Origin: Cytophagales bacterium
GTDB lineage: Bacteria > Bacteroidota > Bacteroidia > Cytophagales > CCMP332
Length of the DNA: 64,000 nucleotides
Reading direction: 5' to 3'
NCBI GenBank assembly: GCA_965227315.1
Contig: OZ245737.1
Span: 859,517-923,516, forward strand
The first letter of the stretch is position 1. Every line of letters begins with the position of its first letter. The notes beneath the pieces were generated by a model, which did no database searches, had not been told where the DNA came from, and saw nothing but the letters and a program-made list of their open reading frames with translations. This document shows positions 22,248 through 50,400 of this stretch, piece by piece. A program made the position numbers and the translations under genes.

Positions 22248-22313
22248 AATGCTGGTTGAAGAGATCAGCCTATTTTTTCTAAAGAAATAAAAAAAAATCC
22301 AGCCGAGAAAGTT

Positions 22314-28700: not shown

Positions 28701-29363
28701 TGCTATACCGAACCAGGAGTATGTAATTATACCACTGGCGGTGGCAGATAAGGTAAATGTATCACCATCGCAAATCGAAACCGTTCCGAAAGTATCCAGG
28801 GTTACAATTGGCAATGCCCTAACTGTGATCGCCAATGAATCAGATATTCCCAAACATCCAAGCGGAGTTTCATAGGTCGCAAAATACCTTCCGGAGTCCT
28901 GTGCAAAGATCTGGAATTGACCATTGGTCAGTAAGGTGTCATAAGGCGTCACCACACCGAGGGAATCTCTGAACCAACGGATACTTGCGGTATCGTAGTT
29001 GGAGAAATTATTCAATTGGATCAACGGCGGAGTTGGGCTTCCGAAGCAAATATCCGTTGAGCCGGATATCACGGATATACCTTCCTGTGCGACGATCTGA
29101 ACTTCAACATTCACAGTATCGGACAGTGTGAAGCAACCGTTAAGTCCAACAACAACGCAATGGAAATCTCCGTCGATCACAAATCCACCATTGCCGAATA
29201 CGATCTTACTCGAATCAATACCACGGAATACGGTATCAGGCTGTACACCAGCTGTATTGATCCAATAATAGGTTTGCCCTGCCACTTGTGGTACCTCCAA
29301 ACTATCACGTTCAATATCGCAAATGGCAATGTCCGTATTATCTACCAGGGTAGCATCCGGCAC
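25716..29363 (-). CDS. C-terminal segment of the giant adhesin: Ig-like Cys-framed modules, a PKD-like domain and a T9SS type B (gliding-motility-associated) C-terminal sorting domain. It has no signal peptide of its own.
   Basis: The C-terminus VYLPNAFSPNSSNAENRTFKV...LTIYNRWGTKVY...WDGT...PQGVYTYYIKG...GTVNLIR matches the type B CTD. A PKD-like YFWDFGDATG..PVHVY lies upstream of it. The called start is a GTG and the frame stays open upstream into the 7010-aa ORF. Confidence 0.85.
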   Translation of the reverse strand: MPDATLVDNTDIAICDIERDSLEVPQVAGQTYYWINTAGVQPDTVFRGIDSSKIVFGNGGFVIDGDFHCVVVGLNGCFTLSDTVNVEVQIVAQEGISVISGSTDICFGSPTPPLIQLNNFSNYDTASIRWFRDSLGVVTPYDTLLTNGQFQIFAQDSGRYFATYETPLGCLGISDSLAITVRALPIVTLDTFGTVSICDGDTFTLSATASGIITYSWFGIAQGAIPNPSPPFDEIDIFVEDGYYVSINDGSCDAVSDTVYLELNPLPWVGVDTIAGTARFCAYPGNSVTLAADSVFPTSIYTWVYNGVDTVFGPTLGSSNMVTDSAGDYSLMIINSNGCTDTSTQVTVIVDTLQQYNITGLDTVCAPEAEVYTADVPGSWSLSNANGSIQPPATGTATVTIDWISPVASVLTFSPDPSGVVLCPVDTDTTIRIFNKPGVTITGPVEICQDSTGIFEASLGVGDSYDWNLTAGSANQPHNFSGVGFLGFRDTIQFSNFGQDTLVVSRIDPNSANCESTDTIVIKTFRNVFAEFSGSTDTCEGSVVVYNVDSLSPWSTVNYNSYVSPNGTIISSGQGTVTVQWGTGPTGWVAFSVTNGPCYDSVYKDVTLTPAPVTGIASSIPGDTICELEFDTISFWSTNPDPTHTYFWDVQQGVTVVSQLGGVTNDTLVLVIQQNGSFTVELQQTNAAGCRTDSLLAIHISEDPGNIVIDDWPVAACADGSTRSYTLSNVKPNTLITPFINDQQPNGPNNITWTGSQLLVNWGLAKQNSYVVLEATLETCTRFDTFFIQVDTLAEVIMLPTNPQSFCANEPVILIATPQDTSYTYQWFRDGDSIQGATDSVYVVDSTGDYSVRVTTLGGCSELSNSAFMTVFGIPNATILGDSIICPGDSTVLSSADNNVISYLWRNLFTQDSFPSSTVTVDEPGLWQLILINGDDCKDTSEVFEVYELQNPGVVILVDTNTYCNNDTVLLTGLFTGDSISILWTTDGLGNLINPDQDTAFYVPSDLDQGAVNFNVEVSNPCLVVEDDTVISFLDAPSARYVTSVPVGEIDQPVQFVLEDKTAFEYFWDFGDATGVGVDPVHVYASAGEFMTGVLAENANGCTDTFFLPFTVTNNEQVYLPNAFSPNSSNAENRTFKVYGYNVQASEFELTIYNRWGTKVYSTTDIGEAKFVGWDGTSTSLGGGNVPQGVYTYYIKGKFRSGESFEKAGTVNLIR

Positions 29364-29374
29364 AGGTAGAACAG

Positions 29375-29435
29375 TTACACTGATGGTTGCCGTATCCGTA
29401 AAACACCCATTGTTGCAAGTCCTACCACCTGGTAA
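29375..29435 (-). other. Frameshift junction joining the 7010-aa and 1215-aa ORFs (apparent 1-nt deletion, most plausibly at about 29408-29413)
   Basis: The upstream frame reads ..DYQVVGLATMGVLRIRQPSV*. The downstream frame, read 5' of its called start, gives ..NNGCFTDTATISVTVLPVPDATLV. That supplies the conserved second Cys and the V.V..P end of the module begun in the upstream ORF. The span 25716-50407 is 24692 nt, which is 2 mod 3. Confidence 0.75.
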
Positions 29436-32400
29436 TCGGTATCTACCAATGGCACCACAGGCTCAATACCATTGGTATTGACCGTACCGGTACTCCAGTA
29501 GAATGAATCCGCCACCAAAGGTGCATTGATCGAAGCCGATAGCTCGGTGGTATCGCCAAGGCAAACAGGATTTGGAACTGCTCCTGAAGTCAGTTTTGGT
29601 TTTGGCAAGACGATCAGCGTATCATAAAGAATGCTGTTACAGGTTCCTTCCACAAAGGTCCACTCATATACAATTTCAAGAGGCTTGGTCAGCGTATCAG
29701 GGAGAGACTGAGAACTCAATATGCCTATTGAATCAAGTCCGCCATTATAGATGAAAATGGAGAATGGTCCGGGCTGAACCCTGAAAACCGTATGGTTAAA
29801 GGTCGGTCCCGCCGGCAGGTTGACCAGGTAGAGAGAGGTAGAATCACCATAACATACCGTATCGTCAGCAAGCCTGATCCTCACATTTGGATATTGTGTC
29901 AATAGTATGGTCACCGTGTCATAGTTCACGCAATCATTGAAGTCTCTGATCTTCAAGGCAAGATTCGATGGAGAGTTTCCGGCGCCGGGCAAATAGGTCG
30001 TAGGGTTGAGTAGCTCGGCTCCCGGTGCTATGAAACCAGGAGGATCAAGAGCGCTCCAGAAGAAGGTATCAATTCCAATAGGGTTTCCGGCATCCGGTAC
30101 GGAATGAACATTCACCAGCGGATTTGATGGACTAGCCGGACAATAGGCCAGGGTGTCGTTCAGGCTGATTGAGCTTCCATCGGTGGAGAAATTCTGAAGA
30201 GGCAGTGGATTCACAAAAACCTGGACCGAATCCATACTTGAGCAGGTATTTTGGTTATTGGTCAAAGCGATATAGAAGATCGTATCCGTTGAAGCCCGGT
30301 AATGAATGGTATCGGTCGTTTTGCCGTTAGACCACAGGATATCCAGCATCCCATAGCTTTGGTAATTGACAGTATCCGTGATCCTCAACACTGTATCCAG
30401 CCCAAAACACATATCAAAGGAATCATTCTGGATGTTGAATGAAGGAAGTTGCAGGGATCTTACGAACTGTGAATCGATCGCAACACAACCGATCGGATCT
30501 GTTACGGTGAGGTAAACCATGGTGTCACCTATATAATTCGCGGTGAAATTCGGGAACTGAAGGGTGTCATCATCAAACAATCCTGAAGGAGCCCATTGGA
30601 AATCGAATGTTCCGTCAAATCCACCTCCCGCGGTAAAGAAACCTCCCATTTGAACAGTCGAGAATTGGCAGAGGGAATCCACAATTGCATTTGGATCGAA
30701 TGTGATTGGTGGATTCACCGTAATGGTCACGGTTCTGACCTCAACGCAAATTCCCAGGCTATCACGGATTGTAACCGAGAACTGATGCGGGATCTGATTC
30801 GCATTGCCAAGAGGATTGAACAGCGGATTTCTTGCATTCGGATCATCCAGGAAGTTGACGGAAGTAGAGGGTATCGAGGACCATACAAAAGTATATGGTT
30901 CGGTTCCGCCTGTTACGGTCACAGATCCATCATATAGCGTATCACCCAGATAAATGGAATCTCCAAAACACAGGGTTGTATCATTGATCAGACCCGCCGA
31001 GATCGAATCATTGACAAAAACGAATAAGCTATCCTCATCGGTACAACCAAAGCTATCACTCACCACCACGTTGTATTGCAATCTCATAGCAGAGTCAGCA
31101 GTCAATGCCGGGTTTGCCAGGCTGGCATCATCCAGCTTGATATTTGGAGTCCAGGTATAACTCAATGGTCCTCCCGGAATACCTGGCAGGTTATTTCCTG
31201 TAGGATTACCGCCTAAGGACGAATCCTGACCATAACAGAGGTAAAGCGTATCAAATACTCCTGGTGCGGTCAAACGATTCGCATCGGCAATGATCCTGTT
31301 GGAGACAGCAATATGAACCGTATCGAAATTATCGCAGAGGAAGCCATTGTCCTGAACCCTGATCACATAATCATACAAGCCAGCTATGATACCATCCATA
31401 GTAGCGGTGTCGTTCAACAGAGTACCACCCAGGTTAGTACCCGGCGTCCAGGTGTAGGTGAATGGTCCTTCATCGCTGATCACATCCGCGATCAATAAGA
31501 GTGAATCCTGGAAGCATGCGATGGAATCAGCATTGCCGAGCAGATCTATGGACCTGGCGTTTACCATCAGAGTATCCCTGACACGGATCTGGATCACCGA
31601 ATCAACAATGCAACTCGCCATGAAGGGGTCCATGTCATCAGTGACCGAAAGAGTCAGCAAGTGAACCCCGGAAGAGTCACCATAGAAATCAGGTTGAAGA
31701 AGTGTATCGTCGTTCAAATAGGTGTTTGGACTCCACAGGTAGCTGAAGTTACCTGATCCTCCAACCACATTGGCCGGGATAGGTTGAATCGTATCCTCGA
31801 AACAGATCACCGTTGAATCGCCTGGGAAAGATGAGATAGAAATCTGTGGGTTCAGTCGAATAACCACCTGATCAACTACCTCACAGATCTGCATACTGGC
31901 AGTATCATAGACGGTCAGCGTAAATGTCACGTCAACCGGCCCGGGCAACGGAGTCACATTATGGATCAATATCGGGTTGGCCGAATCTCCGGAATTGATC
32001 AGGCCGGGGAAATTCGGGATATAAGTCCACTGATATTTAAATGCACCCTGTCCCCCACTTGCTGTCGGCAAACCACCCAGGATCATTGTATCTCCGTAAC
32101 AAACCACGGTATCGACACCGGCATCAACCATGATAGTATCATTCACCCGCATTTGGATGGTATCCCTTCCAATACATCCTATGCTGTCCGTACCGGTCAA
32201 ATAAACCTGATAGAGTCCGGATTGGATTCCCTTGAAGTATGGGTCAGCAATGGTATCGCTTGGGCTGAAAATACCGGCGATCACAGGGTTAGATTCCCAC
32301 TGGTAACTATGCATTCCGATTCCACCCGAATCTCTTGGCTGAACATCGAGCTGAAGGCTGTCCATAAAACAGACTATTGAATCGGGTGCCACCGCGTTTG

Positions 32401-35400
32401 CAACCACTTTGGGGTTATAGACTATCCGTACGGTGTCATATACCTGGCATCCCGCCACGGTATCGGTGATCTCGACCACATAGGTGACATCATCTCCTAC
32501 ATCGATGCTATTGATCACCAATGGGTTAAAAGAAGTGCTATCCGCAGGATCATCGAAATAGGTTGTCGGTCTCCAAATCGGAGTCAGGTTGATGTTCCCT
32601 GAGCCTCCCATGGCTGTGGGGGTTCCGCCAAGCACAGCGCTATCCTCAAAACAGATAATCGTATCATTTCCTGCAAATGGAATGATCTCAGGATTAACCT
32701 GAACCATAACCGTATCTATATCGAAGCACAGGCTATCATCCGTAACCTCGACGATGAAATTGAATGTGTTGACCGTATCTCCAGAGAAAATCGGGTTAGC
32801 AGCATTGGTATCGCTTAGTAAGCCATCATCATCCAGTCCCGTGGACAGTGTCCATGAGTAGGTATATGGAGGATTACCACCGGAGGCAGTCACAGAATCG
32901 GGTACAATACCACCCAGCGTATGCGCCTGGTCGAAGCAGATCAATGTATCATACCCGGCAAAGGCCATCGGATTCTCAAGTTCGATCACATGGAACAGCC
33001 TTGTGGTATCTGTACAGGTGATCACGTTTCCTCCAAATTGTGGGAAAGTGGTGTAGGATTTAGTCAGCACGGCATAATACACACCGGTGGTATCGATCCA
33101 TACCTGATGGGTATCAGCGGCAATGAGGGTGTTTCCAACCGTATCATACCAGTCTACCCTCAGCTCCGGACCCTGGTTATTGTCGATTGAGATCAGGGCG
33201 GAATCCGTATCATCACAGAAAACCGTATCGTGTACAAGGTCGAAGATCAATGAATCATCCAGGAAGTTCACTTTGATTCCGACCGTGTCGGTAAACTGAG
33301 CACAGGTAGCGGGATTCAATCCATTCAGTACTTCCGCATAGTAATTTCCTTCGGTAGTGACTACAAGGGTGTCTGTATTTGCACCTACAATGATGCCATT
33401 GTCATCATACCATTGATAGGAAGGTGCATTATCAGGTTGGTAGAAACCGCCTTTCGCAAACACATGACCATTGTTTTTAAGCTCCAGGTTGAAGGAATTG
33501 GAAGTTGCATCTCCGATGAGATCACCGTCATCGAATATCCCGACCGAATCCATTTGCCATAAGGCAAGCAATCCATGCTCCGTTCCGGAAAGCGGCACAA
33601 GGCTGTTGTTGGCAAAGAATACCCTTGGATGGGCATTTTCCCAGAACCTCACCTCATCAATACTTCCGGGGAATTCGCTCGCCGGCAATGTGGCACATCC
33701 GAAATTCTGATCGATGCCTACCACCAGATCACAGGCAGGCCCCGGAGTGAAGTCGGGCATCACAATATTTTCAGTGGAGTCATAGGCAGATCCTACGCCA
33801 ACCACATGAATGGCCTTGCCTCTGATATTGTCCCACGAAACCGCTACATGGAACCAGTCGCTGGTATTCCAATTGCCATTACTTCCGGTAAGGATAAGTT
33901 GATCGGTACCAGCACCATTGGCGGCGACATCGGTTTCAAACATAATGTCTCCGTTTACATCAAATGCAATTCTGAAATAATCGTTTGCATCCTGATTCTT
34001 CATCATCAAGACGGAGTTTGCTAGCGAGGCGAGGTTATCAATCTTAAAGAAGAGTTCTACGGAGAAACCATTATCTGGTACGAGGTCAAGAAGATTGTTG
34101 GCCTCACCATAACCGGCACCAGTTGTTGACCAATAATTGGTATTCACGGAATTGATCACCAACTCAACAGACCCGTCCTCACAAATGGTGTCCGTCTCAT
34201 AGCGAACGCTATCATCAAATTGTGGTGCATTCCGGATCACCTGGCTGCGACTTGGCTCGGTACACTCTTCCTTGGTGATGGCCACGGTATAAATTCCTGT
34301 CTTGGTAGACCCAAAGTCCCTGCTTGTTGCTCCGGGGATGGTATCCCAGCCGTAGAACCACTGGTAGGTTACGGCAGGAGGTCCGATTTCATTGCTTTCG
34401 AAGGCGACGGAATCACCAAAACATCCCACGGCGATCGGAGATCCCGAACCGAGGAGCAGGTTCAGCGTGGTGTCGATGATCACTTCCCTTAATGGAAGGA
34501 CGTTCGAAGTAGCTGCACAGTTGCCATTTGACACTTCAACCGTTACATCACCGGTGGTATCATAAACAAAGAAATTGCTTGTAAACAATGGTTGAATCGT
34601 GCCATCGACCCTCCATACATATCCCGGGTTGGAAAGTGGAGCTCTGTAATATCCCGAATCAATTCCAAAGAAGGAATTCACAAATGATCCTCCTGCAAAT
34701 CCGGTAACCACTTCTTTTGGTGTGGACCCGGTAGTATCCTCAAAGTTCCACAGTGCAAACAGGTTGGGCTCGGTTCCCCTTAACGGTGTATTCCTGTTAT
34801 GAGCTATCGAGATCGAATCCATAGCATAATCCCAAATTCTCACCTCATCGATCAAGCCGGTCATGAAATAAGGATTTGCTCCTGGTCCCTGTGAGCGCAA
34901 TCCCATATAAATGGTATTTGCTCCCGGACTAACCGCCGTATTATTAAATACACCCGCCATCTCCTTTTGTCCGTCGACATACAGGGTCACTCCATCCAAA
35001 TTAGTGTTGATTGCGGAGTCATAGACAACCGCGATATGATGATACTGATAGTCCCTGAGGTCCGTTGTACCAGTGATCCGGTTGTTACCCGCCTGGTTCA
35101 AGGACAATTCAAGAGCACCATTTGCCCCATTGATCCGGACGATCCAGTTGTTCGTTCCGCCTGTACCCCAGGAAATTATTCCCATGGCCGTATCGGTTTT
35201 CACCCAGGCTTCAACCGATTTGGATCCCGGGCCCCCAAGACCATTGATTCCGGTGTTGATGTATCCGGCCCTGCTTCCTGCAGCATGCCCCTGGACTCCC
35301 GGCACCCAGAGCAATACACTATCGTCTTTGCAAAGGATGCTATCGCCTAATCTGATACTCAACAGAGAATCAATTCTTGGCTTGATGCTGACCTGAGCAT

Positions 35401-38400
35401 AACCCATGGTGTCAATACATGAAGCGTTGGCAGCAAGAATTTGATAAACCCCGGTCCATCCTGCCTCATATGTGGAATCGTTGGCCCCCGCAATGGTATC
35501 ATTTCCATACATCCAGGTCAGGTTGTAATCGGCCGCGACCGAAGGCCCGACAAGGCTTAGCGTGATCGTCTCACCAAAACAGGTATCCGCAACTGCCGCA
35601 ACCGTGCTATCGGCAAATGGAAGCGGTGTTTCTACGATGATGGCCCTGGAAGAATCCGCACAGCCCCTTCCATTATCCACCTTCAGATAGTAATTGCCTG
35701 CCGTATCTACACGCAATGAATCGGCCGTTCCCACAATCTGACCTGAAATGGCCTCTATCCATGTGAAACTGACTCCACCCGAACTGTCTTGGGCAAAGAA
35801 AGTAACAGCCGTATCGCCATAGCAGAAGGTCGTATCCCCTACGATCAGCACACTTGGATCTGTTTCCAGGATGGTGATGGAATCATAGGCGAATGTCTGC
35901 GTGGCACAACTGGCGCTGGAATTCAATTCCAGGCTTACGACATCAAATCCTTTTAGCTCATTGGTCGCATATGTTGTTCCGATATGTCTTAGGGTATCAT
36001 TGACATACCAGCGATATCCCGGATTGGCTCCTTGTCCTCTTACACTATCAACTTCAAATGTGATCAGCTCATCAGGGCAGATCGGATTCATGGGATCCAT
36101 GCTCAGGAACACCTCAGGAGTAACACTACCCGGTAGTGTATTCACTCCATAGGTGAAGAAGACGGAATCCGTTGGGGCCAGACAACCACTTGAGGCATTG
36201 GTAACGGTTACCCTGTAAGTTTCCCCGGCATTTACACCGGTCTGAATACTTGTGAGGTCTGCACCTGCTGCAACCAACTGAACAGAAGGTGAAATTCTTC
36301 TCCAGACATATTGAGAACCAAATCCAAGTCCTACGACATTGGCGCTAAGGTTCGTCAGATCACCATTACATGTCGGATCAGGATCCTGGGTAATGGTCAC
36401 CGAAGGAGTGTTGTTGATCGTAATGGTATCAAAATCTATAGCTGTGGCGGTTCCTGCACCACAGGCAAGACCCTTATTCAGTTCCACGGAAATGAAGAAC
36501 GGACCAGCTCCGGTAAAGGAACGAATGATGGTATCACCGTTGCCGAAGAATGTTCCATTTTCCCTCCAGGCATAGCTTGGGTTATCTCCTTCTCCGGTAG
36601 AAAGCGCTACAAGTCTTACCAGGGACCCGCTACAGATCTCTGTTCCCGGAGTCACCTCGATATCAACCGTTGGGATAATTGGGTCTTGAAGGTCAATTAC
36701 AAGTGTATCCCTATCCGTTGGGACAGCTCCGCATCCGTTTGAGACCAGTTCTACAACCACTTCGTCGCCATCAGCAAGCATGTTCGAGTTGTAGGTTCCA
36801 GATGAATTGGTTGCCACAAGCCCACCGTTGACAAACCAGTTGTAAACCGGGCTGGTGCCCTCACCGGATACCGTGGTTGAGAAAGTGACATTGTCACCCG
36901 AACAAACAGGGTTTGCAGGAGACTGGGCAAGGCTTACGCTTGGTGTCACAACAGGATCTACCGTAGTCGACTGGAATGCAAGGAAGCTCTGTCCGGTGTT
37001 GCACGAGTTCGGGTCAGCAGTCAGGTTCAGGGTGATCAGGTTGGTCCCCGGACCGATCTCAAATGAGTTCGATGGTGCGCCCGCCACGGTTGTCAATGTG
37101 ATCTGATCAAGATTTGAGATCGGTGGTCCGGCGGGTGGAATGACATTCCATTGATAACTTGGATTTGCACCCCCGCCAATGACATTGGCAGTATAGGTTA
37201 CAGTCTGTCCGATACATAGATCTCCTGAAGGGCTTTGGTCTATAGATACCTGCAGTGGAACCGTAAGGCTGCCCTGAATAAAGATCGTATCAGCTGCGGT
37301 TGGCATGGAGGCGCAGCCTGGAGGATTGCTTGAAGTCATGATGACCGCCACTTCATCTCCATCCTGAATGTTGACGAAGGTTACATTGTCTAAGCCTGTT
37401 CCCTGAGCCTGAAGCCCTCCGTTGAGAAACCATTGATAAGAAGGAGAAGTACCGCCACCGGAAGGATTAGCAGTGAAATCCACATCATCACCAATACAAA
37501 CGGGGTTGTCAGGGCTTTGTGAGATCGAAACCTCAGGAGTAATTGGGTCCTGGATCTGGATGATATAGGAATCATTAACGATTGCTCCTGAAGATTTACA
37601 AGAAGCGTTGCTATTGAGCTGGACTGAGATTGAGTCGCCGCTTACAGTATTTCCAGGGTAGAGGTAGCTGGTTCCAAAGGCAACCGGGTTTGTACCCAGG
37701 TACCAGGTCGGAACCGCTGTTCCCTGTCCAACCATGATAGCTTCAAATTCCACATCCTCATTTGGACAAACAGGTCCGTTAGGATTGGCGCTGATAGAGA
37801 TCGAGGGCGTTACTGAATTGTCAACAACAACCAAAACCGAATCAAGCACTACATCCGGGGAATAGCAACTTGGCGCTTTGGACATCCTCACTTTCACATA
37901 ATAGCTTCCGGCCGGGGTGAAAGTGGTATCGAATATTGTACTGTCCGTACCAGCGGGATTATTATCAATAAACCACTCATAAACCGGATTTGCGCCCCCA
38001 CCCACATTGGAAGCCTCAAACTGAACCGGGTCATTGATACAAACCGGTGAAGCCGGACTTTGAACAATACTCACCGTAGTCGTACCGCCTGTTGTGGTAT
38101 TGATCGTAACCTGATCCGTAACCGAACCGACAGTTGCACAGGCAGCTGTGGTAGTGAGTGTGAAGCTAAATTCGTCACCATCATTCCAATTTGTGGACAG
38201 GACAGTCAAGGAGTCATCGGTACCGATTACAGCGCCTCCGTTTCTTCTCCAGGCATAGGTATCCGAAGGTCCAGCTCCGGTGATGTTGGCAACAAGGAGC
38301 AGATCGTCGGTGGCACAAACAGGATTTGCCGGGAACTGATCAATGCTCACCACAGGAGTAATTGAGTCTACCACGATCATCAGGGTGGTATCTTCCACGA

Positions 38401-41400
38401 TCCCCGCAGGTGCAGGAATACATCCCATTCCGGTCACATCCAGTGTAACTCTAACAAGATCTCCATCCGTTGGTGAATATGAATAAGAGTTGCCGGTTGA
38501 AACGATCGGACCACCATTCACCGTCCATGCCCATACAGGAGCGTTTCCTGTATCAGTAGCAACTACCGTGAAGTCTACCAATTCCCCATCACAAACCGAG
38601 CCCGGAGGATCCTGAACCAGGGAAACGGTTGGCGGCACATTGGGATTCACCAGGACTTCAGCCGAATCTGTGATGTTGGCATCAGGTGCGGCCACTCCGC
38701 AGCCATTGGCATCGGATATGGAATCGATATAGTAAGTGGTATTGACAGTGGGGTTTACAACGATATTGTCTCCCGAAGTATAGGGGAATATGTCTGTTGT
38801 ATTTGTTCCGTCGGTGTACCTGACAAAATATGGTGCGGTTCCGGTAGTAAAATTCACCTGAATGTTTGCAGAAGAACCATCACAAATGGATTGGTTCAAA
38901 GGCGTCATATTAGCAGCAGCGGTTGGATTCACAAGGGAAGTGGCATTGCTGGTGATAACTGTAGCCGCACAGAATGGTGGCGTACTGGTCGTAGCTGAGA
39001 CAAGCGTATAAGTGGTCAATGCCGGATTTGTTGGCACATGCCAGATCGTATCCCCTGAAGTATAGGGAGAAGGAACGACAGGATTAGCGCCTATATCCGC
39101 AACAATGGTGATCAGATATGGCCCTGCTCCTCCTACGAAATTCACAACCAATGGAATAGAGTCACCTTCGCAGATCACCGCACCACCGGTCAAGTTGGCC
39201 GAATCTACAGGGTCAAAGAACTCAACATCCATTTCATCAAATGAGTCAGCACAGGTTCCGTTGGAAATCGTCCACCTCAAAGTATGCGTTCCAAGGAATC
39301 CGTTGGAATAGGCTGAGGAATTGAATTGAGAGCTATCACTGAAGGTCACCTGTCCAGGGCCCGATTGCCATGTCCAAACTCCATTTCCTACACCTGGGTC
39401 CGGGTTGTTGGCCGCAAGTATCGCCGAATCTCCGCAGAGTCCCAATTGGTCTCCTCCCGCATTCGCAGTTGTTGGGTTCGCAAAGAACCAAACCAGGATC
39501 TGATCCCTGAGGGTATCACAGGATCCGTTAAAGGATTTCCATTCCAACAATACCTCCACTGTATCCTCCGTACCGGTGAAAACCACTGAGGCCGTGGCGT
39601 TCGGCAAAGTAGGATCGTTAAACGACACTCTCGGGATAGCACTGATATCCTTCCACCTACCCTGCCCTGAGGTAATGTTATTTGCAGAAAGAACAATTGA
39701 ATTAGAACATATTTCAGCACTGTCGGGGCCGGCATCGGGTATCGTCGGATCGGCAAAGAAGTCCACCGTGATCGAACTTGCACTTGGGGTACATGAACCG
39801 GAACTGATCGTCCAGGTCAACTGATACTGCCCGTAAACTCCATTATGCCTTGCAATGGTGTTGAACAGTGTATCATCATCAAAGGTGATCACTCCACCGG
39901 CGGGAGCAAGAGTTGTTGTCCATTGTCCCGTTCCTACTATAGGATTATTAGCTGCCAGTTCTACGGTATCGGCACAAATACTATCTGTAACCGCACCGGC
40001 AACCGAGGTAGTTGGGTCCTCATCAAAAGTGATCAGAACGGTATCACCCACCGATGGGCATGGATCATTGGCAACCGTCCATGATAATTTGTAGGTGCCA
40101 TACAATCCCGGACCCGTTGTATGAACTACGGAAGTCGGACTGTTTCCATTAACAAAATTGATATTTCCTGATACGGGATGCTCAGTCCAAAAAGAGGAGA
40201 ATGGACCAGGATTTGATGCCGCCAGGGTTGTGAACGTGTCGCAAACCGATTGGTCCGGGCCTGCAAAAACCGGAATTAAAACCCGATCTCTGAATCCAAC
40301 CGTAACCGAATCCTGATCCACGGGGCAATTACCGTTGCTGGTGGTCCACATCAAAATGTAATTTCCATCCGTAGATCCATAAGCTTCAGATTTTGGATCT
40401 GCAGGATTATCAAAGGTCACAACTGCAGGACCTGAAACAAACGACCACATTCCTGATCCAACAGTGACTATATCGGCGTTCAAACCCACGGTGTCACCGC
40501 AAACGGAGGTATCGTTTCCGGCAAATGCAGGAGTCGGATTATCAAAGAAGGTGATCTGAACCGTATCGGCTGAGTCGAGGCATACTCCGTTGCCAAGGCT
40601 CCAGCTCAATTCATATACTCCGAAACCACCTGCCGTAAAGTCTGTGTTGAATACCGTGCTGTCCACAAAGACGTGACCTGCCGGACCGCTCACTACCTGC
40701 CAGTAACCATACTCACCTGCTGCAGGCATGTTACCAGCCAATGTGGTGGTCAGCTGACAGACCGAATCAGGGGTACCTGCGTTCGGAACCGTAGGATCAT
40801 CGAAGAAGGTGATCTGAACCGTATCGGCTGAATCCAGGCATACTCCGTTGCCAAGGCTCCAGCTCAATTCATATACTCCGAAACCACCTGCCGTAAAGTC
40901 TGTGTTGAATACCGTGCTGTCCACAAAGACGTGACCTGCCGGACCGCTCACTACCTGCCAGTAACCATACTCACCTGCTGCAGGCATGTTACCAGCCAAT
41001 GTGGTGGTCAGCTGACAGACCGAATCAGGTGTGCCTGCATTCGGAACCGTAGGATCATCGAAGAAGGTGATCTGAACCGTATCGGCTGAATCCAGGCATA
41101 CTCCGTTGCCAAGGCTCCAGCTCAATTCATATACTCCGAAACCACCTGCCGTAAAGTCTGTGTTGAATACCGTGCTGTCCACAAAGACGTGACCTGCCGG
41201 ACCGCTCACTACCTGCCAGTAACCATACTCGCCTGCTGCAGGCATGTTACCAGCCAATGTGGTGGTCAGCTGACAGACCGAATCAGGTGTGCCTGCATTC
41301 GGAACCGTAGGATCATCGAAGAAGGTGATCTGAACCGTATCGGCTGAATCCAGGCATACTCCGTTGCCAAGGCTCCAGCTCAATTCATATACTCCGAAAC

Positions 41401-44400
41401 CACCTGCCGTAAAGTCTGTGTTGAATACCGTGCTGTCCACAAAGACGTGACCTGCCGGACCGCTCACTACCTGCCAGTAACCATACTCACCTGCTGCAGG
41501 CATATTACCAGCCAATGTGGTGGTCAGCTGACAGACCGAATCAGGTGTGCCTGCATTCGGAACCGTAGGATCATCGAAGAAGGTGATCTGAACCGTGTCG
41601 GCTGAATCCAGGCATACTCCGTTGCCAAGGCTCCAGCTCAGTTCATATACTCCAAAACCACCTGCCGTAAAGTCTGTGTTGAATACCGTGCTGTCCACAA
41701 AGACGTGACCTGCCGGACCGCTCACTACCTGCCAGTAACCATACTCACCTGCTGCAGGCATGTTACCAGCCAATGTGGTGGTCAGCTGACAGACCGAATC
41801 AGGTGTGCCTGCATTCGGAACTGTAGCAATGTCAAAATAGGTAATCTCTACGGTATCCGCTCTATCAACGCAAGCACCGTTTGTAACCCTCCATTCAATT
41901 TCATAAACGCCGAAAACACTGGCCGTTGCTGTTGTATTGGGGAGAGAACTATCTCCAAATGTGATTATACCCGGGCCTGATATCTGTGACCACTGGGTTG
42001 TTCCCGCACTTGGGGTATTTCCCATTAAGTTGTAAACCAATCCACAGATTGAATCATCAGCACCAGCGATAGCTGTATCGGGTTGCTCGAAGAACTCGAA
42101 GATGACCGAATCAACCGAAGGGGTGCAAGGTCCGTTGCTTACGGTCCAATAAAATTTGTATACCCCGTATGCATCTACATTGACCGTTGCTGCTGGGTTG
42201 AGGCTATCATTGCTGAAATTGGCATTTCCGGGGTTTCCGACAATGTCAGCCGTCCAGATACCAGAGCCAATAGTCGGTGGAACCGCTTGAAGCGCCGTCG
42301 AAAACCCGCAGGCAGAATCAGGATCGGGGCCAGCATCAGCCGTACTCGGGTTATCAAAGAATGACAATTCAACAGTGTCAATACTAGGAGTACAGTTGCC
42401 GTTAGTAATTGTCCAGGTGACCAAATAAACTCCAAAATCAGATGCGGTTATTGGGGTATTCGGGTCATTTGGGAAAAAGAAAGTAATGTCATTGGGTCCC
42501 GGCGGAGTGGATATTGTATCCCATACACCAATACCTACTGTAGGGGTATTGCCATCCATGGTATAGTTTGTCCCACATAGACTTGTATCCGACCCGGCAT
42601 TAGAAGTCGTCGGATCTTGATCAAAACGAACAAAGACGGTATCTGCAGAATCAAGGCAGACACCATTTCCTATACTCCAACTCAGCTCATACAATCCATA
42701 GTTTCCTCCTGTAAAGTCTGTGTTGAATACCGTGCTGTCTACAAAGGCGTGACCAGCCGGACCGCTCAATACCTGCCAGTAGCCATATTCACCCGCCCCA
42801 GCCGGATTTGCTCCCAGCGTTGCGGTGAGACCACAAACAGTGTCGTTCATTCCTGCATTGGGCACGGTCGCAAAATCAAAGAAGGTGATCTGAACCGTGT
42901 CGGCTGAATCCAGGCATACTCCGTTGCCAAGGCTCCAGCTCAATTCATATACTCCGAAGCCGCCAGCTGTAAAGTCTGTGTTGAATACCGTGCTGTCTAC
43001 AAAGACGTGACCTGCCGGACCGCTCACTACCTGCCAGTAACCATACTCGCCTGCTGCAGGCATATTACCAGCCAATGTCGTGGTCAGCTGACAGACCGAA
43101 TCAGGGGTACCTGCATTCGGAATCGTAGGATCATCAAAGAAGGTGATCTGAACCGTGTCGGCTGAGTCAAGGCATACTCCGTTGCCAAGGCTCCAGCTCA
43201 ATTCATATACTCCGAAGCCGCCAGCTGTAAAGTCTGTGTTGAATACCGTGCTGTCTACAAAGACGTGACCTGCCGGACCGCTCACTACCTGCCAGTAACC
43301 ATACTCGCCTGCTGCAGGCATATTACCAGCCAATGTCGTGGTCAACTGACAGACCGAATCAGGTGTGCCTGCATTCGGAATCGTAGGATCATCAAAGAAG
43401 GTGATCTGAACCGTGTCGGCTGAGTCGAGGCATACTCCGTTGCCAAGGCTCCAGCTCAATTCATATACTCCGAAGCCGCCAGCTGTAAAGTCTGTGTTGA
43501 ATACCGTGCTGTCTACAAAGACGTGACCTGCAGGACCGCTCACTACCTGCCAGTAACCATACTCAGCCGGTCCTGGCATATTACCAGCCAATGTCGTGGT
43601 CAGCTGACAGACCGAATCAGGGGTACCTGCGTTCGGAATCGTAGGATCATCAAAGAAGGTGATCTGAACCGTGTCGGCTGAGTCAAGGCATACTCCGTTG
43701 CCAAGGCTCCAGCTCAATTCATATACTCCGAAGCCGCCAGCTGTAAAGTCTGTGTTGAATACCGTGCTGTCTACAAAGACGTGACCTGCCGGACCGCTCA
43801 CTACCTGCCAGTAACCATACTCAGCCGGTCCTGGCATATTACCAGCCAATGTCGTGGTCAGCTGACAGACCGAATCAGGGGTACCTGCGTTCGGAATCGT
43901 AGGATCATCAAAGAAGGTGATCTGAACCGTGTCGGCTGAGTCAAGGCATACTCCGTTGCCAAGGCTCCAGCTCAATTCATATACTCCGAAGCCGCCAGCT
44001 GTAAAGTCTGTGTTGAATACCGTGCTGTCTACAAAGACGTGACCTGCCGGACCGCTCACTACCTGCCAGTAACCATACTCAGCCGGTCCTGGCATATTAC
44101 CAGCCAATGTCGTGGTCAGCTGACAGACCGAATCAGGGGTACCTGCGTTCGGAATCGTAGGATCATCAAAGAAGGTGATCTGAACCGTGTCGGCTGAGTC
44201 AAGGCATACTCCGTTGCCAAGGCTCCAGCTCAATTCATATACTCCGAAGCCGCCAGCTGTAAAGTCTGTGTTGAATACCGTGCTGTCTACAAAGACGTGA
44301 CCTGCCGGACCGCTCACTACCTGCCAGTAACCATACTCGCCTGCTGCAGGCATATTACCAGCCAATGTCGTGGTCAGCTGACAGACCGAATCAGGGGTAC

Positions 44401-47400
44401 CTGCGTTCGGAATCGTAGGATCATCAAAGAAGGTGATCTGAACCGTGTCGGCTGAGTCGAGGCATACTCCGTTGCCAAGGCTCCAGCTCAATTCATATAC
44501 TCCGAAACCACCTGCCGTAAAGTCTGTGTTGAATACCGTGCTGTCCACAAAGACGTGACCTGCCGGACCGCTCACTACCTGCCAGTAACCATACTCACCT
44601 GCTGCAGGCATGTTACCAGCCAATGTGGTGGTCAGCTGACAGACCGAATCAGGGGTACCTGCGTTCGGAACCGTAGGATCATCGAAGAAGGTGATCTGAA
44701 CCGTATCGGCTGAATCCAGGCATACTCCGTTGCCAAGGCTCCAGCTCAATTCATATACTCCGAAACCACCTGCCGTAAAGTCTGTGTTGAATACCGTGCT
44801 GTCCACAAAGACGTGACCTGCCGGACCGCTCACTACCTGCCAGTAACCATACTCACCTGCTGCAGGCATGTTACCAGCCAATGTGGTGGTCAGCTGACAG
44901 ACCGAATCAGGTGTGCCTGCATTCGGAACCGTAGGATCATCGAAGAAGGTGATCTGAACCGTATCGGCTGAATCCAGGCATACTCCGTTGCCAAGGCTCC
45001 AGCTCAATTCATATACTCCGAAACCACCTGCCGTAAAGTCTGTGTTGAATACCGTGCTGTCCACAAAGACGTGACCTGCCGGACCGCTCACTACCTGCCA
45101 GTAACCATACTCGCCTGCTGCAGGCATGTTACCAGCCAATGTCGTGGTCAGCTGACAGACCGAATCAGGTGTGCCTGCATTCGGAACTGTAGGATCACCG
45201 AAAAAGACCAACTGCATCACATCCTGTGATTCAGGACAAGTACCATTTTGTGAATTCCAAAACACTGAGAAAGTATCAGGGCTTGAAACAATACCCGCAA
45301 CGTCTACCCGCACATTCGGATCCGTCGTATCATTTCCAAAGAAAAATAATGTTGAAGGCCCTGTAGCCGTCCAGTACCCCAAGCCGGTACCTATGGGAGT
45401 TCCGGACAGAAAGGCCGTCGTGCCGCAAGAATCGATATCAGGACCCGCATCAGGCGGTGAAGGAGAATCATGGAAAACTATCTGCACGATATCACTGCTG
45501 GTATCACAATCACCGATAATTGTCCACTCCAATTCAAAAGTGTCGGAGCTCTGAGTGAATCCACCAACGAGATCAACAATTGTGGTATCACTCAACGGAT
45601 CGACAATGTTAATTGTAAGAGGGCCGCTGATCTGTGTCCAGGTTCCTGCTCCAAATGTTGGTGCGTTTGCGGTCATTCGGATCAGGGTTCCGCACGAATC
45701 GATGTCCGTTCCGGCATCGGCAGGAGTAACCGTTGGCAATGTATCTACATAAAAACTATCCACGGAGAAACAGCCTGGAGACCTTGTAACGGTAAGGAAA
45801 TAGATCTCAGGGCCTGTGTTTGTGATTAGGGCAGTTGCAGAATTGGAAATCTGAAGGCCTCCGGGCGATCCCACATTCCAGCTATAGCTAAAGGTAAATG
45901 TCGGGTCAATCGAAACAGAATCCGCATAAACCAGGGTATCGCTTCCCAGGCAATAAACGATGGTATCATTGGTTGGAGGATTCAAATAGGAAATGACCGG
46001 CTCAAAACAAACCAGTACCGGGTCGGCAAACTCAGAACTATTCCCTCCCGACTCCTGGGTCACAGTGAGGCTGTCCAATCCGGCAATAATTGCTCCGGGA
46101 TTGATCTGCTTGCTCCAAAACCCTCCTGCGTTGGCTACAATTGTGGTATCCAAAAATTGTCTGCCTTGCTCGGATCCGTCAGCAAACAGGGATACGATTG
46201 CCCCCAACGAGGCATCTTTACCATAGAGAATTCCTGTAATACCAAGGCTATCAATAGTCGGAGCTGCAATACCAGACTGCACATCCCCGATCAAAGAAAT
46301 TCCCTCAACCGCATTATCATAAATTGAATTGTTTCTCCAAGCGTTTTGAGCTATTCCACCGCTGTTCGCTTCTATGCCGGGGCCCAGGTTGTTGGCAATA
46401 ATATTGGAGGTATCGGTGTTAAAAGAACCGAAGGTATTGAGACTTGCCCCTGCCCCGTTCAACAAAATGCCCGCCGCACCATTGGCACGCGGAGTGAAAG
46501 CGTCAATGCCGACACCGATCCAGTTCCTAAAAAAGAAGTTGTTATTGGCATTGACAAAAATTCCATTGTTCGTGTTCGATGAGATGATATTTCTGCGATT
46601 AGGGAGCGTGTCTCCCACAACATGATTCAGGCCATTGAGCCTAATACCAATATCATTCGCTGCAGCGTTTCCAAGAGTATCAATTCCAATGAAATTTCCG
46701 TAGATACTGTCGTTTGTCCCAGTCAATGTTTCGATTCCTGCATTTCCACCTAGGAAATTGATGATCGCCAATCCTCTGACCGCAACTCCGCTGGCGTCAA
46801 GTACAATTCCCGAGAAGCTTCCACCCTGTCCATCAAGCTGTATATCCGGAATCCCATCGTTGTCATATCCCGGTTGCGACCAACCATCGATGAGCGTGTT
46901 GGCGCCTGTTACGTTGGGCAGGGCAGAATCGAGAACAATTTCATGAGGTCCCCCACCGGGAATTGAAAATGAAATGATCGAACCTGGAGTCAAATTTGCC
47001 TCTCTAATCGCATTTCTGAAGGTACCACAGGTATTGTCATCAACCGTTTTACTCACCGCGAGACCGCCGTCAACTGTGATCTCTATAAATGCCGAATCCC
47101 AGCAGGTGGTTGCTGTTTCCTGAAAGATCGCCCAAACCGTATCCACAAATCCTACAATTTCCACAGAAGGGTCATAATCTGCGGTGTTGGTGGAAATATT
47201 AATAAGAGAAGAACTACCAACAATCTGTTTCCATGACCAGGTCCCGGGATTAGCAGGAAGGACAGTACTACTCATTCCGAACAGACCGCCGCTGATACAA
47301 ACAATTTGATTGCTTCCCTGATCGATGCCAACGGAAGGGTTGGCATTAATTGTAATCGTTGTTCCAACCAGAGCTGTATCGGTACATCCAAATGGAGTGG

Positions 47401-50400
47401 TTACCACAACATTATAAAGATGTGTTCCAATCGAATCGGCATAAAGGGTATCGGTTGTAGCACCGGCAATCGGGTTTCCATTGATCAGCCATTGGAAAGT
47501 CTCACCGTCCAATGAATCCTCGGAAAGAATTGCAAATCCATTTTCACAGTACGGCCCGGAAGATTGCTCGGTGATCGTCACAACCGGAAGTGGCTCTGCC
47601 TCGATCCATACTGAGTCGTATTCGAAACAGCTCGGATCATCAAAATCCGAAACCCTGACCGTATAGAATTGAGAACTTGCCGGGTTGACCGAGATAAAGG
47701 ATTTTGTTTGACCAACCAATACCGGGTCGGTGCGCCCACCATCATACCATTCGAAAAGCAGACCATTGCTTCCCAGGATAGTCCCAGCAACAGTGGCAGA
47801 ATCAACCCGAACTACAGTATCTCTGGTTGAGCAATTGTAGATACTGTCATGCGGGAGGGATACAACAGTATTTAGAAAATTGATATCGGGGCGTGAACAA
47901 ATTGCGAAGGGGGCAGAAAAATCTGATGATCTGTCTCCATCATCCTGTATGGCCGTGAGGTTTGTTAATCCGGGATTGATCCCTCCAAGGTTTAGGTCAA
48001 ACTCCCAGTTACCTCCGGCGGTTGCCACAGTATCTCCAAGATATTGCTCTCCTTCTTCGGCGGCATCGGCAAAAACCTGGATCCTGGCATTTGGTTGGGA
48101 AGTTCCTTCCAGGATAGTTCCCACCGGATTAAGATCATTAATCACCGGGGAATCAATGTCGTTTTGAACGCCCGGATCTACGAAATCTATTCCCAGTCCA
48201 CCATTTGAATAGATCTGGTTCTCAAAAAAGCGGTTGTCGTCTGCGCTACCCCTAACTCCTATGCCTTCATTGGCTGAATTGGCAATATCATTTGCAATGA
48301 TCGAATCGTTTTGTGCAGTACCCGAAAGATTGATACCGGCAGTCGATCCGGCAAGCGGGGTCCCGCCGGTGCTAATTCCAATACTATTGTTCTTTACGTC
48401 ATTGGCGCTTCCTGACTCGAGGCTGATCTCGTAGGTACCATGTCCTCCAATGTAGTTTCGCCCTCCAGCGGTTCCATCTCCGATCTGATTATTGGATGCT
48501 CCACCATCCACCCTGATACCATAGGCAGCATTGGCAACGGTGGCGTTTCCAAGATTATCCGTACCGATATAATTCCCTAATATTTGGTTGCCTTGTCCGG
48601 CTCCTCCGGATATTCGAATGTCCGAATCTCCATTTCCGGAGATCACATTTAGCCCTGAAGGGGTTCCGTCTCCAATCGAATTGTTTGCCGAGCCATCAAT
48701 AAAAACCCCGTTTACCCCATTGGGTATTGCTGCATTTCCGCTAGCGTTAAGCCCTATATAGTTTCCGATTACGAAATGAACACCAACACCCTCAATCTCA
48801 ATTCCATCATCGGAATTCCCAGAAATTATATTTCTTTCAGCAGGCGTTGTGCCGCCAATTCTGCAATTTGTTGCTAGCGAAGTGATGTTTACACCTTCTA
48901 TATTGGCAGAGGCCGCAACCGCAGTACCTGCAAGGTTGGTCCCGATCCTGTTGCCAATCGCAACCGCATTTGCTCCTTCAACCCAAATGGCCGAAACAAA
49001 GTTGAATAGGTGGAGATATTGGAAAGTGATATTATCTCCATCGGCTCTCATTTTCGATACAGCACCACCATCGATCGATACGGAAGGAATGTCATCTCCG
49101 TCAATATCACCGTCAATTACGGTTCCATTTCCATTTCCTGCCGAGACGATCAACTCATTGCCCAAAACCACTGTCTGACCGGTCATCACAGGATCAAAAC
49201 GTATGGTGTCCGCTCCCAAATTGCTATTGGCATATGCGGCCGCCACACTGAGGCATCCACAAGAATCCGGATCATCGGCCGTATTGATGACGATCCTTGG
49301 GTCATTGATCTGAATACTCAGTGAGTCCTGGGCTTCACAACCATCGTCATCGATCTTCCTGGCAAAGATCTTATCGGGACCTGTGGCAATATTGGTAAAG
49401 GTGTAGGTCACAGTATCCTGGTTGCCAACGGCAAGATTTCCATTCGCCAGGGTATGGCTCCAGATCAGGGAATCCGTAGGACTGGAAATAGGAAGCACAT
49501 AAAAATCCTGCACTTCATCCCAGCAATAAGGACCGGGATCGTCAACAGTAAGTGTCAAAGGGATCTGATTCTTAACAAAAAGATCTACCGTGCTGGTAAA
49601 GTGATTGGCCGGTATGGTATGTGTACATCCATTGGAATCGGTCACAGAAACCACAGCATAATCGGTGTATTGAATTCCAGCCGGTCGCGGAGGCATCATG
49701 AGGGTGTCAGTACCTTTCACATTATTGAAAACGAAACCGCCGGGGTTGAGAACAACCGTGAACCCTCCGGCAACGGTATCTGCTTCCCCTGTCACCCTGA
49801 TCCCGATGGGAATGGAATCGCCATCACAAATGGAATCCTTAACCGTATATAGGGTTGCCCCTATAGAGTCCTTATAAAAGAAATTGGATGGAGCAATATT
49901 TCTTGCCGAAACGCTTGCTACTCCTCCTGTAAATGTCAGTATGGTACCTGTTGGCGGGTTGGTTCTCCAGGAAAGCACACTTGAGTCGCATTTGTCAAGA
50001 ATGGGGATAACAATAGTACCAACCGTGGTATAGGTCAATGGAACCTGTACAGCAGCTCCCGGCGTAAGACTTTTAACCACATTGATCCCGACAACATTTA
50101 ATAAGGTGTTTCGGGATATGGTCATAGGATCATAACCTCCAACGTTATGCCACGCACCTCCGGTCGGGTCTAGTCTGGCATTATCAATATCAAGGTCAGG
50201 GGCGGTCGAGTCTACATTTGGTCTTAACCAAAAGTTTGAACTTCCAAGATCATCGGCAATACCGATTCGGCGTATTTCAATTAATACTCTGATGGAGTCT
50301 TTGGAAGCATCCAGGGATTGAGTGGCCCTAAGCTCCAGGTCAAGCTGAGAATATGCCCCAATGGAGCACAGCAGAAGTATGGATATCAGGTAGAGTTTCC

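What the first reader, a model, noticed from the sequence alone, without database searches (positions are those of the whole stretch)
40541..41830. A second array of five copies matches the V-subtype of array B; the two subtypes differ almost only at synonymous sites
Array A (5 copies) is separated from array B by 1044 bp, which is four diverged modules of the same family. At the nucleotide level, array A units match the three V-type units at the N-terminal end of array B (gaaaccacctgccgtaaag, gtccacaaag, caatgtggtgg, gaatccagg). They do not match the six I-type units (gaagccgccagctgtaaag, gtctacaaag, caatgtcgtgg, gagtcaagg or gagtcgagg). Apart from V/I and AAG/GPA, the subtype-distinguishing positions I checked are synonymous: GGF as ggt ggt ttc versus ggc ggc ttc, VD as gtg gac versus gta gac, and LDS as ctg gat tca versus ctt gac tca. 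This implies that two lineages were kept under strong purifying selection on the peptide, that each then amplified, and that a segment was copied across the four diverged modules. Direct repeats of V-type units about 2.6-4.4 kb apart are substrates for in-frame deletion or duplication of whole blocks.
Basis: seen in the sequence. Interest (0 to 1): 0.6.

Follow-up and report, generated by a model that had tools for sequence, protein, structure and literature searches.

The report
Duplicated stalk repeats, giant surface fibre
Five near-identical 86-residue modules form a second repeat block in the stalk of a giant secreted surface fibre of a marine Cytophagales bacterium; they are a recent copy of part of the neighbouring block, which is an ordinary though clean case of repeat amplification under selection to keep the peptide.

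Summary
Array A (40541-41830, minus strand) is five in-frame 258-bp units. It lies 1044 bp (four diverged modules) from the nine-unit array B. Both sit in a run of 25 Ig/PKD-like modules in a gene of about 8,200 codons for a type IX-secreted fibre that resembles GhpA and SprB.

Array A belongs to the V subtype. A4 equals B2, and A3-A5 differ from B1-B3 at 3 of 774 bases. The V and I consensus units differ at 15 synonymous sites and 1 replacement site (dN/dS 0.017, P = 5e-9).

Refinements:
- The subtypes are mosaic at their edges; A5 and B3 are V/I hybrids.
- There are 61 incompatible site pairs, so the subtypes have exchanged sequence.
- The ratio is not clearly lower than the unit's long-term value.

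A relative that is 95% identical in the flanks has no such units. A more distant MAG has the same unit, repeated, also with silent-only differences between copies.

Whether V and I diverged in place or one was imported from a sister lineage stays open. I could not verify unit order or copy number with long reads. This is a new member of a known kind, the "periscope"-type homogenised stalk repeats, and its interest is modest.

The parts
40541..41830 (-). Array A: five 258-bp units in gene order A1 (41573-41830), A2 (41315-41572), A3 (41057-41314), A4 (40799-41056) and A5 (40541-40798). A1-A4 are V-type. A5 is a V/I hybrid that differs from B3 at 1 base.
41831..42874 (-). Four diverged modules, D1-D4, between the arrays. 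D1 is an old copy of the same unit (72% aa identity). D2-D4 are 33-49% identical to the unit.
   Evidence: junction contigs of X3 and X4
44423..45196 (-). Array B units B1-B3 (V-type). This is the counterpart of A3-A5, with 3 differences in 774 bases.
42875..44422 (-). Array B units B4-B9 (I-type). B5-B7 (43391-44164) carry the AAG>GPA patch, which is 6 base changes within 10 bases.
39212..45733 (-). Continuous run of 25 Ig/PKD-like modules (aa 1559-3732), in the order C1 C2 B1-B9 D1-D4 A1-A5 E1-E5. Cys14, Cys73, Trp33 and Trp66 are invariant.
   Evidence: AF2 model with pLDDT 96; fold match to the GhpA base with TM 0.81
29375..50407 (-). 7010-codon ORF of the giant fibre protein. It has a signal-peptide-like N terminus, module arrays, two Laminin_G_3 domains and Ig_7 and SprB-like modules.
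25716..29363 (-). 1215-codon continuation of the same gene in another frame, carrying the CHU_C type B T9SS sorting domain. The two frames are joined by a one-base frameshift near 29395-29410.
   Evidence: an X3 contig agrees with the assembly across the site
24672..25715 (-). PorP/SprF-family outer-membrane partner gene.
19404..24653 (-). Two PorE-like genes with TPR, PD40 and OmpA domains; the second also has LysM domains.

Best explanation
Array A is a real block of five nearly identical Ig/PKD-like stalk modules. It lies in one giant type IX-secreted cell-surface fibre protein, which has a type B CTD and PorP and PorE partner genes and resembles Aureispira GhpA and SprB. One 86-residue module was amplified by RecA-type unequal recombination between 258-bp direct repeats.

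Two sequence sub-lineages of that module, V and I, differ by about 6% of bases, almost all silent, because replacements in this module are removed by selection. Each sub-lineage expanded recently. A block of two to three V units, ending in a V/I hybrid unit, was copied between the N-terminal end of array B and the C-terminal end of array A. The mechanism was duplication or gene conversion across the four old modules, probably from B to A. Short conversion tracts keep shuffling silent sites between subtypes.

Functionally, the 14 units add about 1,200 residues of uniform stalk. Their number sets how far the distal part of the fibre projects, and it can change in frame by recombination.

Shown: the anatomy, the subtype structure, the silent-to-replacement excess, the block identity, the mosaicism, the fold, and the absence of these units from a relative that is 95% identical. 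Inferred: the recombination mechanism, the direction of copying, the stalk-length function, and where V and I diverged. On the last point I put roughly even odds on divergence in place and on import of an allele from a sister lineage.
For: dN/dS is 0.017 with P = 5e-9. A3-A5 against B1-B3 shows 3 differences in 774 bases, with 12 in the next best register. There are 61 of 210 incompatible site pairs and Rm is 8.

Concerted pattern across genomes: our 14 units differ from each other by at most 26 bases but from the Cytophagales MAG unit M1 by 49-52 bases. The MAG's entry and exit copies differ at 5 of 132 bases, all silent.

The unit is more conserved than its neighbours: 85% aa identity against 33-61%.

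The 95%-identical relative R1 has a different module after C2. It has only 1082 bases where this genome has 2054, and no V/I-like unit at 80-85% identity or more.

Family context: CHU_C, PorP/SprF and OmpA-type neighbours. GhpA is the only PDB sequence relative, at E = 2.5e-61. The AF2 unit model has pLDDT 96.3, and its best fold match is the GhpA base with TM 0.81, followed by PKD domains. The ghpABC gene layout is described in bioRxiv 10.1101/2024.01.29.577165.

The known kind: long, highly identical stalk repeats that vary in number through intragenic recombination (PMC8201768).

Reads: all laid contigs agree with the assembly, and depths fit 7 V-core copies and 6 I-core copies within about 30%.
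Against: - The order and number of units rest on the deposited assembly. Only k=31 contigs could be laid, and they cannot span a unit.
- X3 shows no contig with the private A1 haplotype. Logan contigs drop minor branches, and X4 does show that haplotype.
- The gene carries a frameshift before its sorting domain. In this strain the protein may therefore not be anchored, and present-day selection is not shown.
- No length variant was observed.
- One replacement against an expected 3-6 is only weakly lower than the unit's long-term rate.
Confidence: 0.8

Rival explanations
1. One subtype, I or V, did not diverge inside this gene. It was imported by homologous recombination from the allele of a sister lineage, so the silent-only differences are ordinary divergence between orthologs. 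This rival concerns only the origin of the split and is compatible with the rest of the best explanation.
For: V against I differs at 10 of 47 four-fold sites (0.21). That is the same scale as this gene's N-terminal part between this genome and relative R1 (216/865 = 0.25), and as housekeeping genes against the JANQHS MAG (0.21-0.29). It is well above the housekeeping divergence to R1 (68/726 = 0.094).

The locus is hypervariable between lineages. The N-terminal part is 71.5% identical in bases to JANQHS, while housekeeping genes are 93.8% identical.

The unit shows less silent divergence from the distant JANQSY MAG (16/39 to 19/38) than housekeeping genes do (245/365).

The units have a patchy distribution: present here and in JANQSY, absent from R1.

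The GPA patch is 6 changes in 10 bases with no donor in the window, which points to a templated import.

Frequent exchange (Rm 8, identical copies) makes long coexistence of two subtypes in one array hard to maintain.
Against: No donor lineage carrying I-type or V-type units was found in any collection or run searched. The sample of silent sites is small, at 47 four-fold codons. The outgroup unit M1 shares states with both subtypes, 8 with V and 6 with I, which is also what divergence in place would give.
Confidence: 0.45
2. The subtype pattern, or part of the mosaicism, is an artefact of assembly or polishing. Examples would be strain variants or mis-mapped short reads written into different copies of a collapsed repeat.
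For: Near-identical 258-bp repeats are hard to assemble and polish. X3 contigs do not show the private A1 haplotype. Depth per copy in X3 is uneven, at 83-151. The D block has 0.75 of the flank depth. The assembly also carries a one-base frameshift.
Against: All contigs of four runs laid on the array match it exactly, and no local haplotype outside the assembly appeared. The V and I cores are both present at multi-copy depth, and both occur in an independent dinoflagellate metagenome. X4 contigs confirm the A1 haplotype and both D-block junctions. The contig is 3.57 Mb, which implies long-read assembly. Random errors would not be almost all silent third-position changes.
Confidence: 0.07
3. 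The silent differences are themselves selected: codon diversification that lowers recombination between blocks and so stabilises the array.
For: Differences cluster in runs of adjacent third positions, for example codons 55-58.
Against: Units within each subtype remain identical or nearly so, so no stabilisation has been achieved. The subtypes clearly still exchange tracts. The same silent-only pattern is explained more simply by purifying selection.
Confidence: 0.03

Closest known systems
Periscope proteins (Whelan et al. 2021, PMC8201768): SasG, Aap, Rib, Sgo_0707 and similar
   Same: A surface protein whose stalk is a tandem array of globular domains with very high DNA identity. Intragenic recombination is expected to add or remove whole repeats in frame and so change how far the distal part projects.
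   Different: This is a Gram-negative Bacteroidota T9SS substrate about 8,200 residues long. Only 14 of its 25 stalk modules of this family are homogenised, in two blocks and two silent-site subtypes. Length variation between strains was not observed here.
GhpA grappling-hook protein of Aureispira sp. CCB-QB1 (PDB 9fly, 9flp; bioRxiv 10.1101/2024.01.29.577165)
   Same: It is the only solved structure related by sequence (E = 2.5e-61) and the best fold match of the unit (TM 0.81). It is also a giant T9SS type B substrate followed by PorP-like and PorE-like genes, with a stem built of successive Ig-like domains.
   Different: Identity is about 26% per module. GhpA's 52 stem repeats are described as 'slightly varying', not clonal. 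Heptamer formation and a hook tip are unknown here. This protein also has beta-helix-like and LamG segments.
SprB/SprF of Flavobacterium johnsoniae (gliding adhesin; from my own knowledge and as described)
   Same: A giant repetitive T9SS type B cargo with an adjacent PorP/SprF-family gene.
   Different: The Pfam SprB repeat scores below its cutoff (17.3 against 28). No link to gliding was tested.

Membership tests
Periscope-type variable-length stalk protein | Long tandem repeats of a globular domain with very high DNA identity | tested here: met
   There are 14 units of 258 bp that are 90-100% identical. The AF2 model shows a beta-sandwich with pLDDT 96.
Periscope-type variable-length stalk protein | Repeat number differs between strains | tested here: inconclusive
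   Relative R1 (95% identical in the flanks) lacks these units and has a shorter module stretch. No second genome of the same strain level with resolved arrays was available, and only short contigs could be laid.
Periscope-type variable-length stalk protein | Cell-surface protein with a wall or membrane anchor at one end and a functional region at the other | tested here: met
   The C terminus carries a CHU_C type B T9SS domain, reached through a frameshift, and a PorP/SprF neighbour follows. The N-terminal signal-like sequence and non-repeat domains appear. Function of the distal part was not tested.
GhpA-like T9SS fibre | Type B (CHU_C) C-terminal sorting domain | tested here: met
   PF13585 matches at 1.8e-14 in 25716-29363(-), which is out of frame with the main ORF in this assembly.
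GhpA-like T9SS fibre | PorP-like and PorE-like genes directly downstream | tested here: met
   PF11751 matches at 2.2e-41, and two OmpA/TPR/PD40 proteins follow. The ghpABC layout is described.
GhpA-like T9SS fibre | Stem of successive Ig-like domains related to those of GhpA | tested here: met
   phmmer gives E = 2.5e-61 to 9flp_A. Foldseek matches 9fly_A with TM 0.81 and rmsd 1.7 A.
GhpA-like T9SS fibre | Seven protomers form a rigid hollow stem with a distal hook | not testable with these tools
   This needs cryo-EM or cryo-ET.
SprB family | Pfam SprB repeats (PF13573) above the gathering score | tested here: not met
   The score is 17.3 bits against a cutoff of 28.
K319L-like PKD domain (PF22352) | The unit matches the Pfam model above the gathering score | tested here: inconclusive
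   The N-terminal 3500-residue piece, which includes the arrays, scored 16.6 bits against 27. The family is listed in the precomputed Pfam hits of the whole protein, and the fold matches PKD domains 2yrl and 6ihb.

The most novel reading that the evidence does not exclude
Stalk modules of these giant fibres behave as cassettes that move between Cytophagales lineages by homologous recombination. On this reading V and I are alleles from two lineages captured side by side in one gene and then amplified. That would explain three things: the unit's lower silent divergence from a distant MAG than housekeeping genes show, its absence from a 95%-identical relative, and the hypervariable N-terminal part.
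Probability: 0.3. Interest if true: 0.45.

Novelty: new member of a known kind. Interest (0 to 1): 0.25.

Why it matters
The locus is a clean natural record of how the stalk of a giant T9SS fibre grows. It holds old diverged modules, one module amplified into two blocks, a dated block copy, and visible conversion tracts. It shows that one particular module is held nearly constant in peptide while its neighbours drift. It also shows that close relatives differ in which modules they carry.

If fibre length or module content tunes contact with coral-associated or dinoflagellate-associated partners, these arrays are where fast heritable variation would arise. None of this changes current understanding of repeat evolution or of T9SS adhesins.

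Tried and rejected
I could therefore not search the window's own genome or its relatives for further unit copies.
- The genome-contig scan found the unit only in one Cytophagales MAG, with its contigs broken at the array.
- The metagenome-contig scan found nothing closer than 43%.
- Protein searches with the array region and with the D block found no close ortholog.
- I looked for a deletion variant joining the arrays. X3 shows the D block at 0.75 of flank depth, which is within ordinary coverage scatter. X5 has no D-block contig, but it also lacks 46703-48094 in the unique flank. Both are uninformative.
- The absence of the A1 private haplotype from X3 is not counted as evidence against it. 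Logan contigs drop minor branches, and X4 shows the haplotype.
- GC-biased conversion was considered as the cause of the unit's low silent divergence. GC3 is raised in the unit in both genomes: 0.52-0.535 against 0.42-0.49 here, and 0.59 against 0.39 in the MAG. That is too little to explain 0.41-0.50 against 0.67-0.72.
- No donor for the GPA patch exists in the window.
- There is no plus-strand ORF of 100 aa or more within the arrays.
Full report
**What is there**

The finding lies on the minus strand inside a 7010-codon ORF, 29375..50407. TRF reports a single 258-bp array of 18 copies at 40536-45197 and no other tandem array in the window. Cutting the translated gene at the recurring '[VI]PNAG' motif gives units in exact register.

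A profile built from the units finds an unbroken run of 25 modules at aa 1559-3732, in the order C1 C2 B1-B9 D1-D4 A1-A5 E1-E5. D1 is 72% identical to the unit. All other diverged modules are 25-51% identical to it and to each other. The 1044-bp spacer is exactly D1-D4.

**Checking the subtype claim**

Among the 14 near-identical units, 29 of 258 columns vary.
- Array A units are 0-13 bases from B1-B3 and 11-26 bases from B4-B9, so array A is V-type.
- Replacement changes fall into three events: the first two codons of A1 at its junction with D4, V/I at codon 4, and a compact AAG>GPA patch in B5-B7 (6 changes within 10 bases).
- The remaining variation is silent.
- V consensus against I consensus gives 15 synonymous and 1 non-synonymous difference, with dS 0.30, dN 0.005 and dN/dS 0.017. 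The binomial P is 5e-9 against the neutral share of replacement sites.

**Refinements**

The subtypes are clean only at column 10 and columns 135-174. At columns 18-27 and 222-255 the states are reshuffled. B3 and A5 are I-like there, B8 and B9 are partly V-like, and B1, A2 and A3 each carry one I state. Of 210 pairs of informative sites, 61 show all four combinations, and Rm is 8. Tracts have therefore moved between subtypes.

A4 is identical to B2, and A5 differs from B3 at one base. The three-unit block A3-A5 differs from B1-B3 at 3 of 774 bases, against 12 for the next best register. Both blocks end in the same V/I hybrid unit. In array B that hybrid sits at the V/I boundary, where it could have arisen. 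In array A it abuts the unrelated module E1. This favours copying from B to A, but that direction is inferred.

A1 is the most divergent V unit. Its two private silent states match D1, as expected for an array edge that homogenisation reaches least.

**Is the assembly trustworthy?**

The contig is 3.57 Mb. Only Logan k=31 contigs of public runs could be laid.
- Every contig of X3, X4, X5 and X1 that was placed on the array matched with zero differences.
- In X3, the V-core, I-core and junction contigs have depths of 760, 500, 754, 565 and 416 for 7, 6, 5, 5 and 4 assembled copies. That is 83-151 per copy, against 130-136 in the unique flanks and 99.8 in the D block.
- X4 contigs span both D-block junctions and the private A1 haplotype.
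- X3 lacks that haplotype, but such contigs drop minor branches.
- An independent dinoflagellate metagenome (X1) holds the V, I and GPA variants unchanged.

Local haplotypes are therefore confirmed. Order and copy number are only roughly supported. No structural variant could be seen or excluded.

**What the protein is**

The ORF is followed, in another frame, by 1215 codons that end in a CHU_C type B T9SS sorting domain. The two frames are joined by a one-base frameshift near 29400, and an X3 contig agrees with the assembly across that site. Next come a PorP/SprF gene and two PorE-like genes.

The only solved structure related by sequence is GhpA, the grappling-hook protein of Aureispira (E = 2.5e-61). 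The unit folds with pLDDT 96.3 into a six-strand beta-sandwich. Its best structural match is the GhpA base (TM 0.81), followed by PKD domains. GhpA is a T9SS substrate whose stem is a chain of Ig-like domains, encoded next to PorP and PorE homologs.

The V/I residue lies in the inter-module linker, and the AAG/GPA residues lie in the loop between strands 2 and 3. Both accepted replacements are therefore outside the strands.

**Relatives**

The closest deposited genome with the unit is a Cytophagales MAG, JANQSY01. One of its contigs is the ortholog of aa 1-1823 (61% identity) and stops right after the first unit. Another contig starts inside a unit, continues with a diverged 'IATIPDAG' unit and then with the E1 ortholog. 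This MAG therefore also has a collapsed array of the same module at the same place. Its entry and exit copies differ at 5 of 132 bases, all silent, so the pattern is repeated independently.

Our units differ from the MAG unit at 49-52 bases but from each other at 26 bases at most, which is the signature of concerted evolution. The unit is 85% identical in protein, while C1, C2 and E1 are 33%, 61% and 53% identical.

Unexpectedly, the unit is also less diverged at silent sites. It differs at 16/39 to 19/38 four-fold sites, against 377/522 in the N-terminal part of the same gene and 245/365 in four housekeeping genes.

A much closer relative, R1 (Logan contigs of a coral metagenome), is 94.8% identical over 15.5 kb of flank. 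It has a different module after C2 and only 1082 bases where this genome has 2054 between E3 and D3. None of four coral metagenomes holds a V/I-like unit at 80-85% identity or more. A third lineage, the JANQHS MAG, is 93.8% identical in housekeeping genes but only 71.5% identical in the N-terminal part of the fibre.

**Origin of V and I**

V against I differs at 10 of 47 four-fold sites. This equals the divergence of this gene's N-terminal part between this genome and R1 (0.25). It exceeds the housekeeping divergence to R1 (0.094).

Together with the patchy distribution, the low silent divergence to the distant MAG and the templated-looking GPA patch, this makes import of one subtype from a sister allele about as likely as divergence in place. 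No donor was found.

**Verdict**

The phenomenon is the known one of homogenised, recombining stalk repeats in a surface fibre (periscope-type, PMC8201768), here in a GhpA/SprB-like T9SS protein. Earlier notes of this scan on array B and on the 25-module run reached the same general reading. I re-derived the anatomy independently. I added the dN/dS test, the block-copy register, the mosaicism, the read checks and the comparison with three related lineages.

Noticed in passing
window 29375-29435 (minus strand): The 7010-codon and 1215-codon ORFs are one gene interrupted by a one-base frameshift just before '...NNGCFTDTATISV'. The 136x X3 contig agrees with the assembly there, so the frameshift is in the reads of that run.
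   Followed up: partly
window 40541-45196 versus L001:6001-6258: The repeated unit is less diverged at silent sites from the JANQSY Cytophagales MAG (16/39 to 19/38 four-fold sites) than the rest of the gene (377/522) or four housekeeping genes (245/365). GC3 is also raised in the unit in both genomes. The cause is unexplained.
   Followed up: partly
L011:15506-15589, and the X6 52,978-nt contig against window 40035-42090: A relative that is 94.8% identical in the flanks has another module ('APTSPIAGTDIDTCGDSAVV...') after C2. It has 1082 bases in place of 2054 and no V/I unit, so module content of the stalk differs between near-species-level relatives.
   Followed up: partly
window 48215-50407 versus L012:3975-6173: The N-terminal part of the fibre is only 71.5% identical in bases to the JANQHS MAG, whose housekeeping genes are 93.8% identical. 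The distal end is hypervariable between lineages.
   Followed up: no
window 43562-43579, 43820-43837, 44078-44095: The AAG>GPA patch in B5-B7 is 6 base changes within 10 bases, with no possible donor elsewhere in the window. It looks like a single templated replacement.
   Followed up: partly
window 41797-42738: In run X3 the unique D block has a word depth of 99.8, against 130-136 in both flanks. This may be coverage scatter or a minority of cells without the D block, and it cannot be decided with contigs.
   Followed up: partly
window 60114-61049: The release factor 2 ORF is 311 codons and starts at Pfam PCRF position 28. This is consistent with the usual programmed +1 frameshift of prfB, with the short first frame lying upstream.
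   Followed up: no
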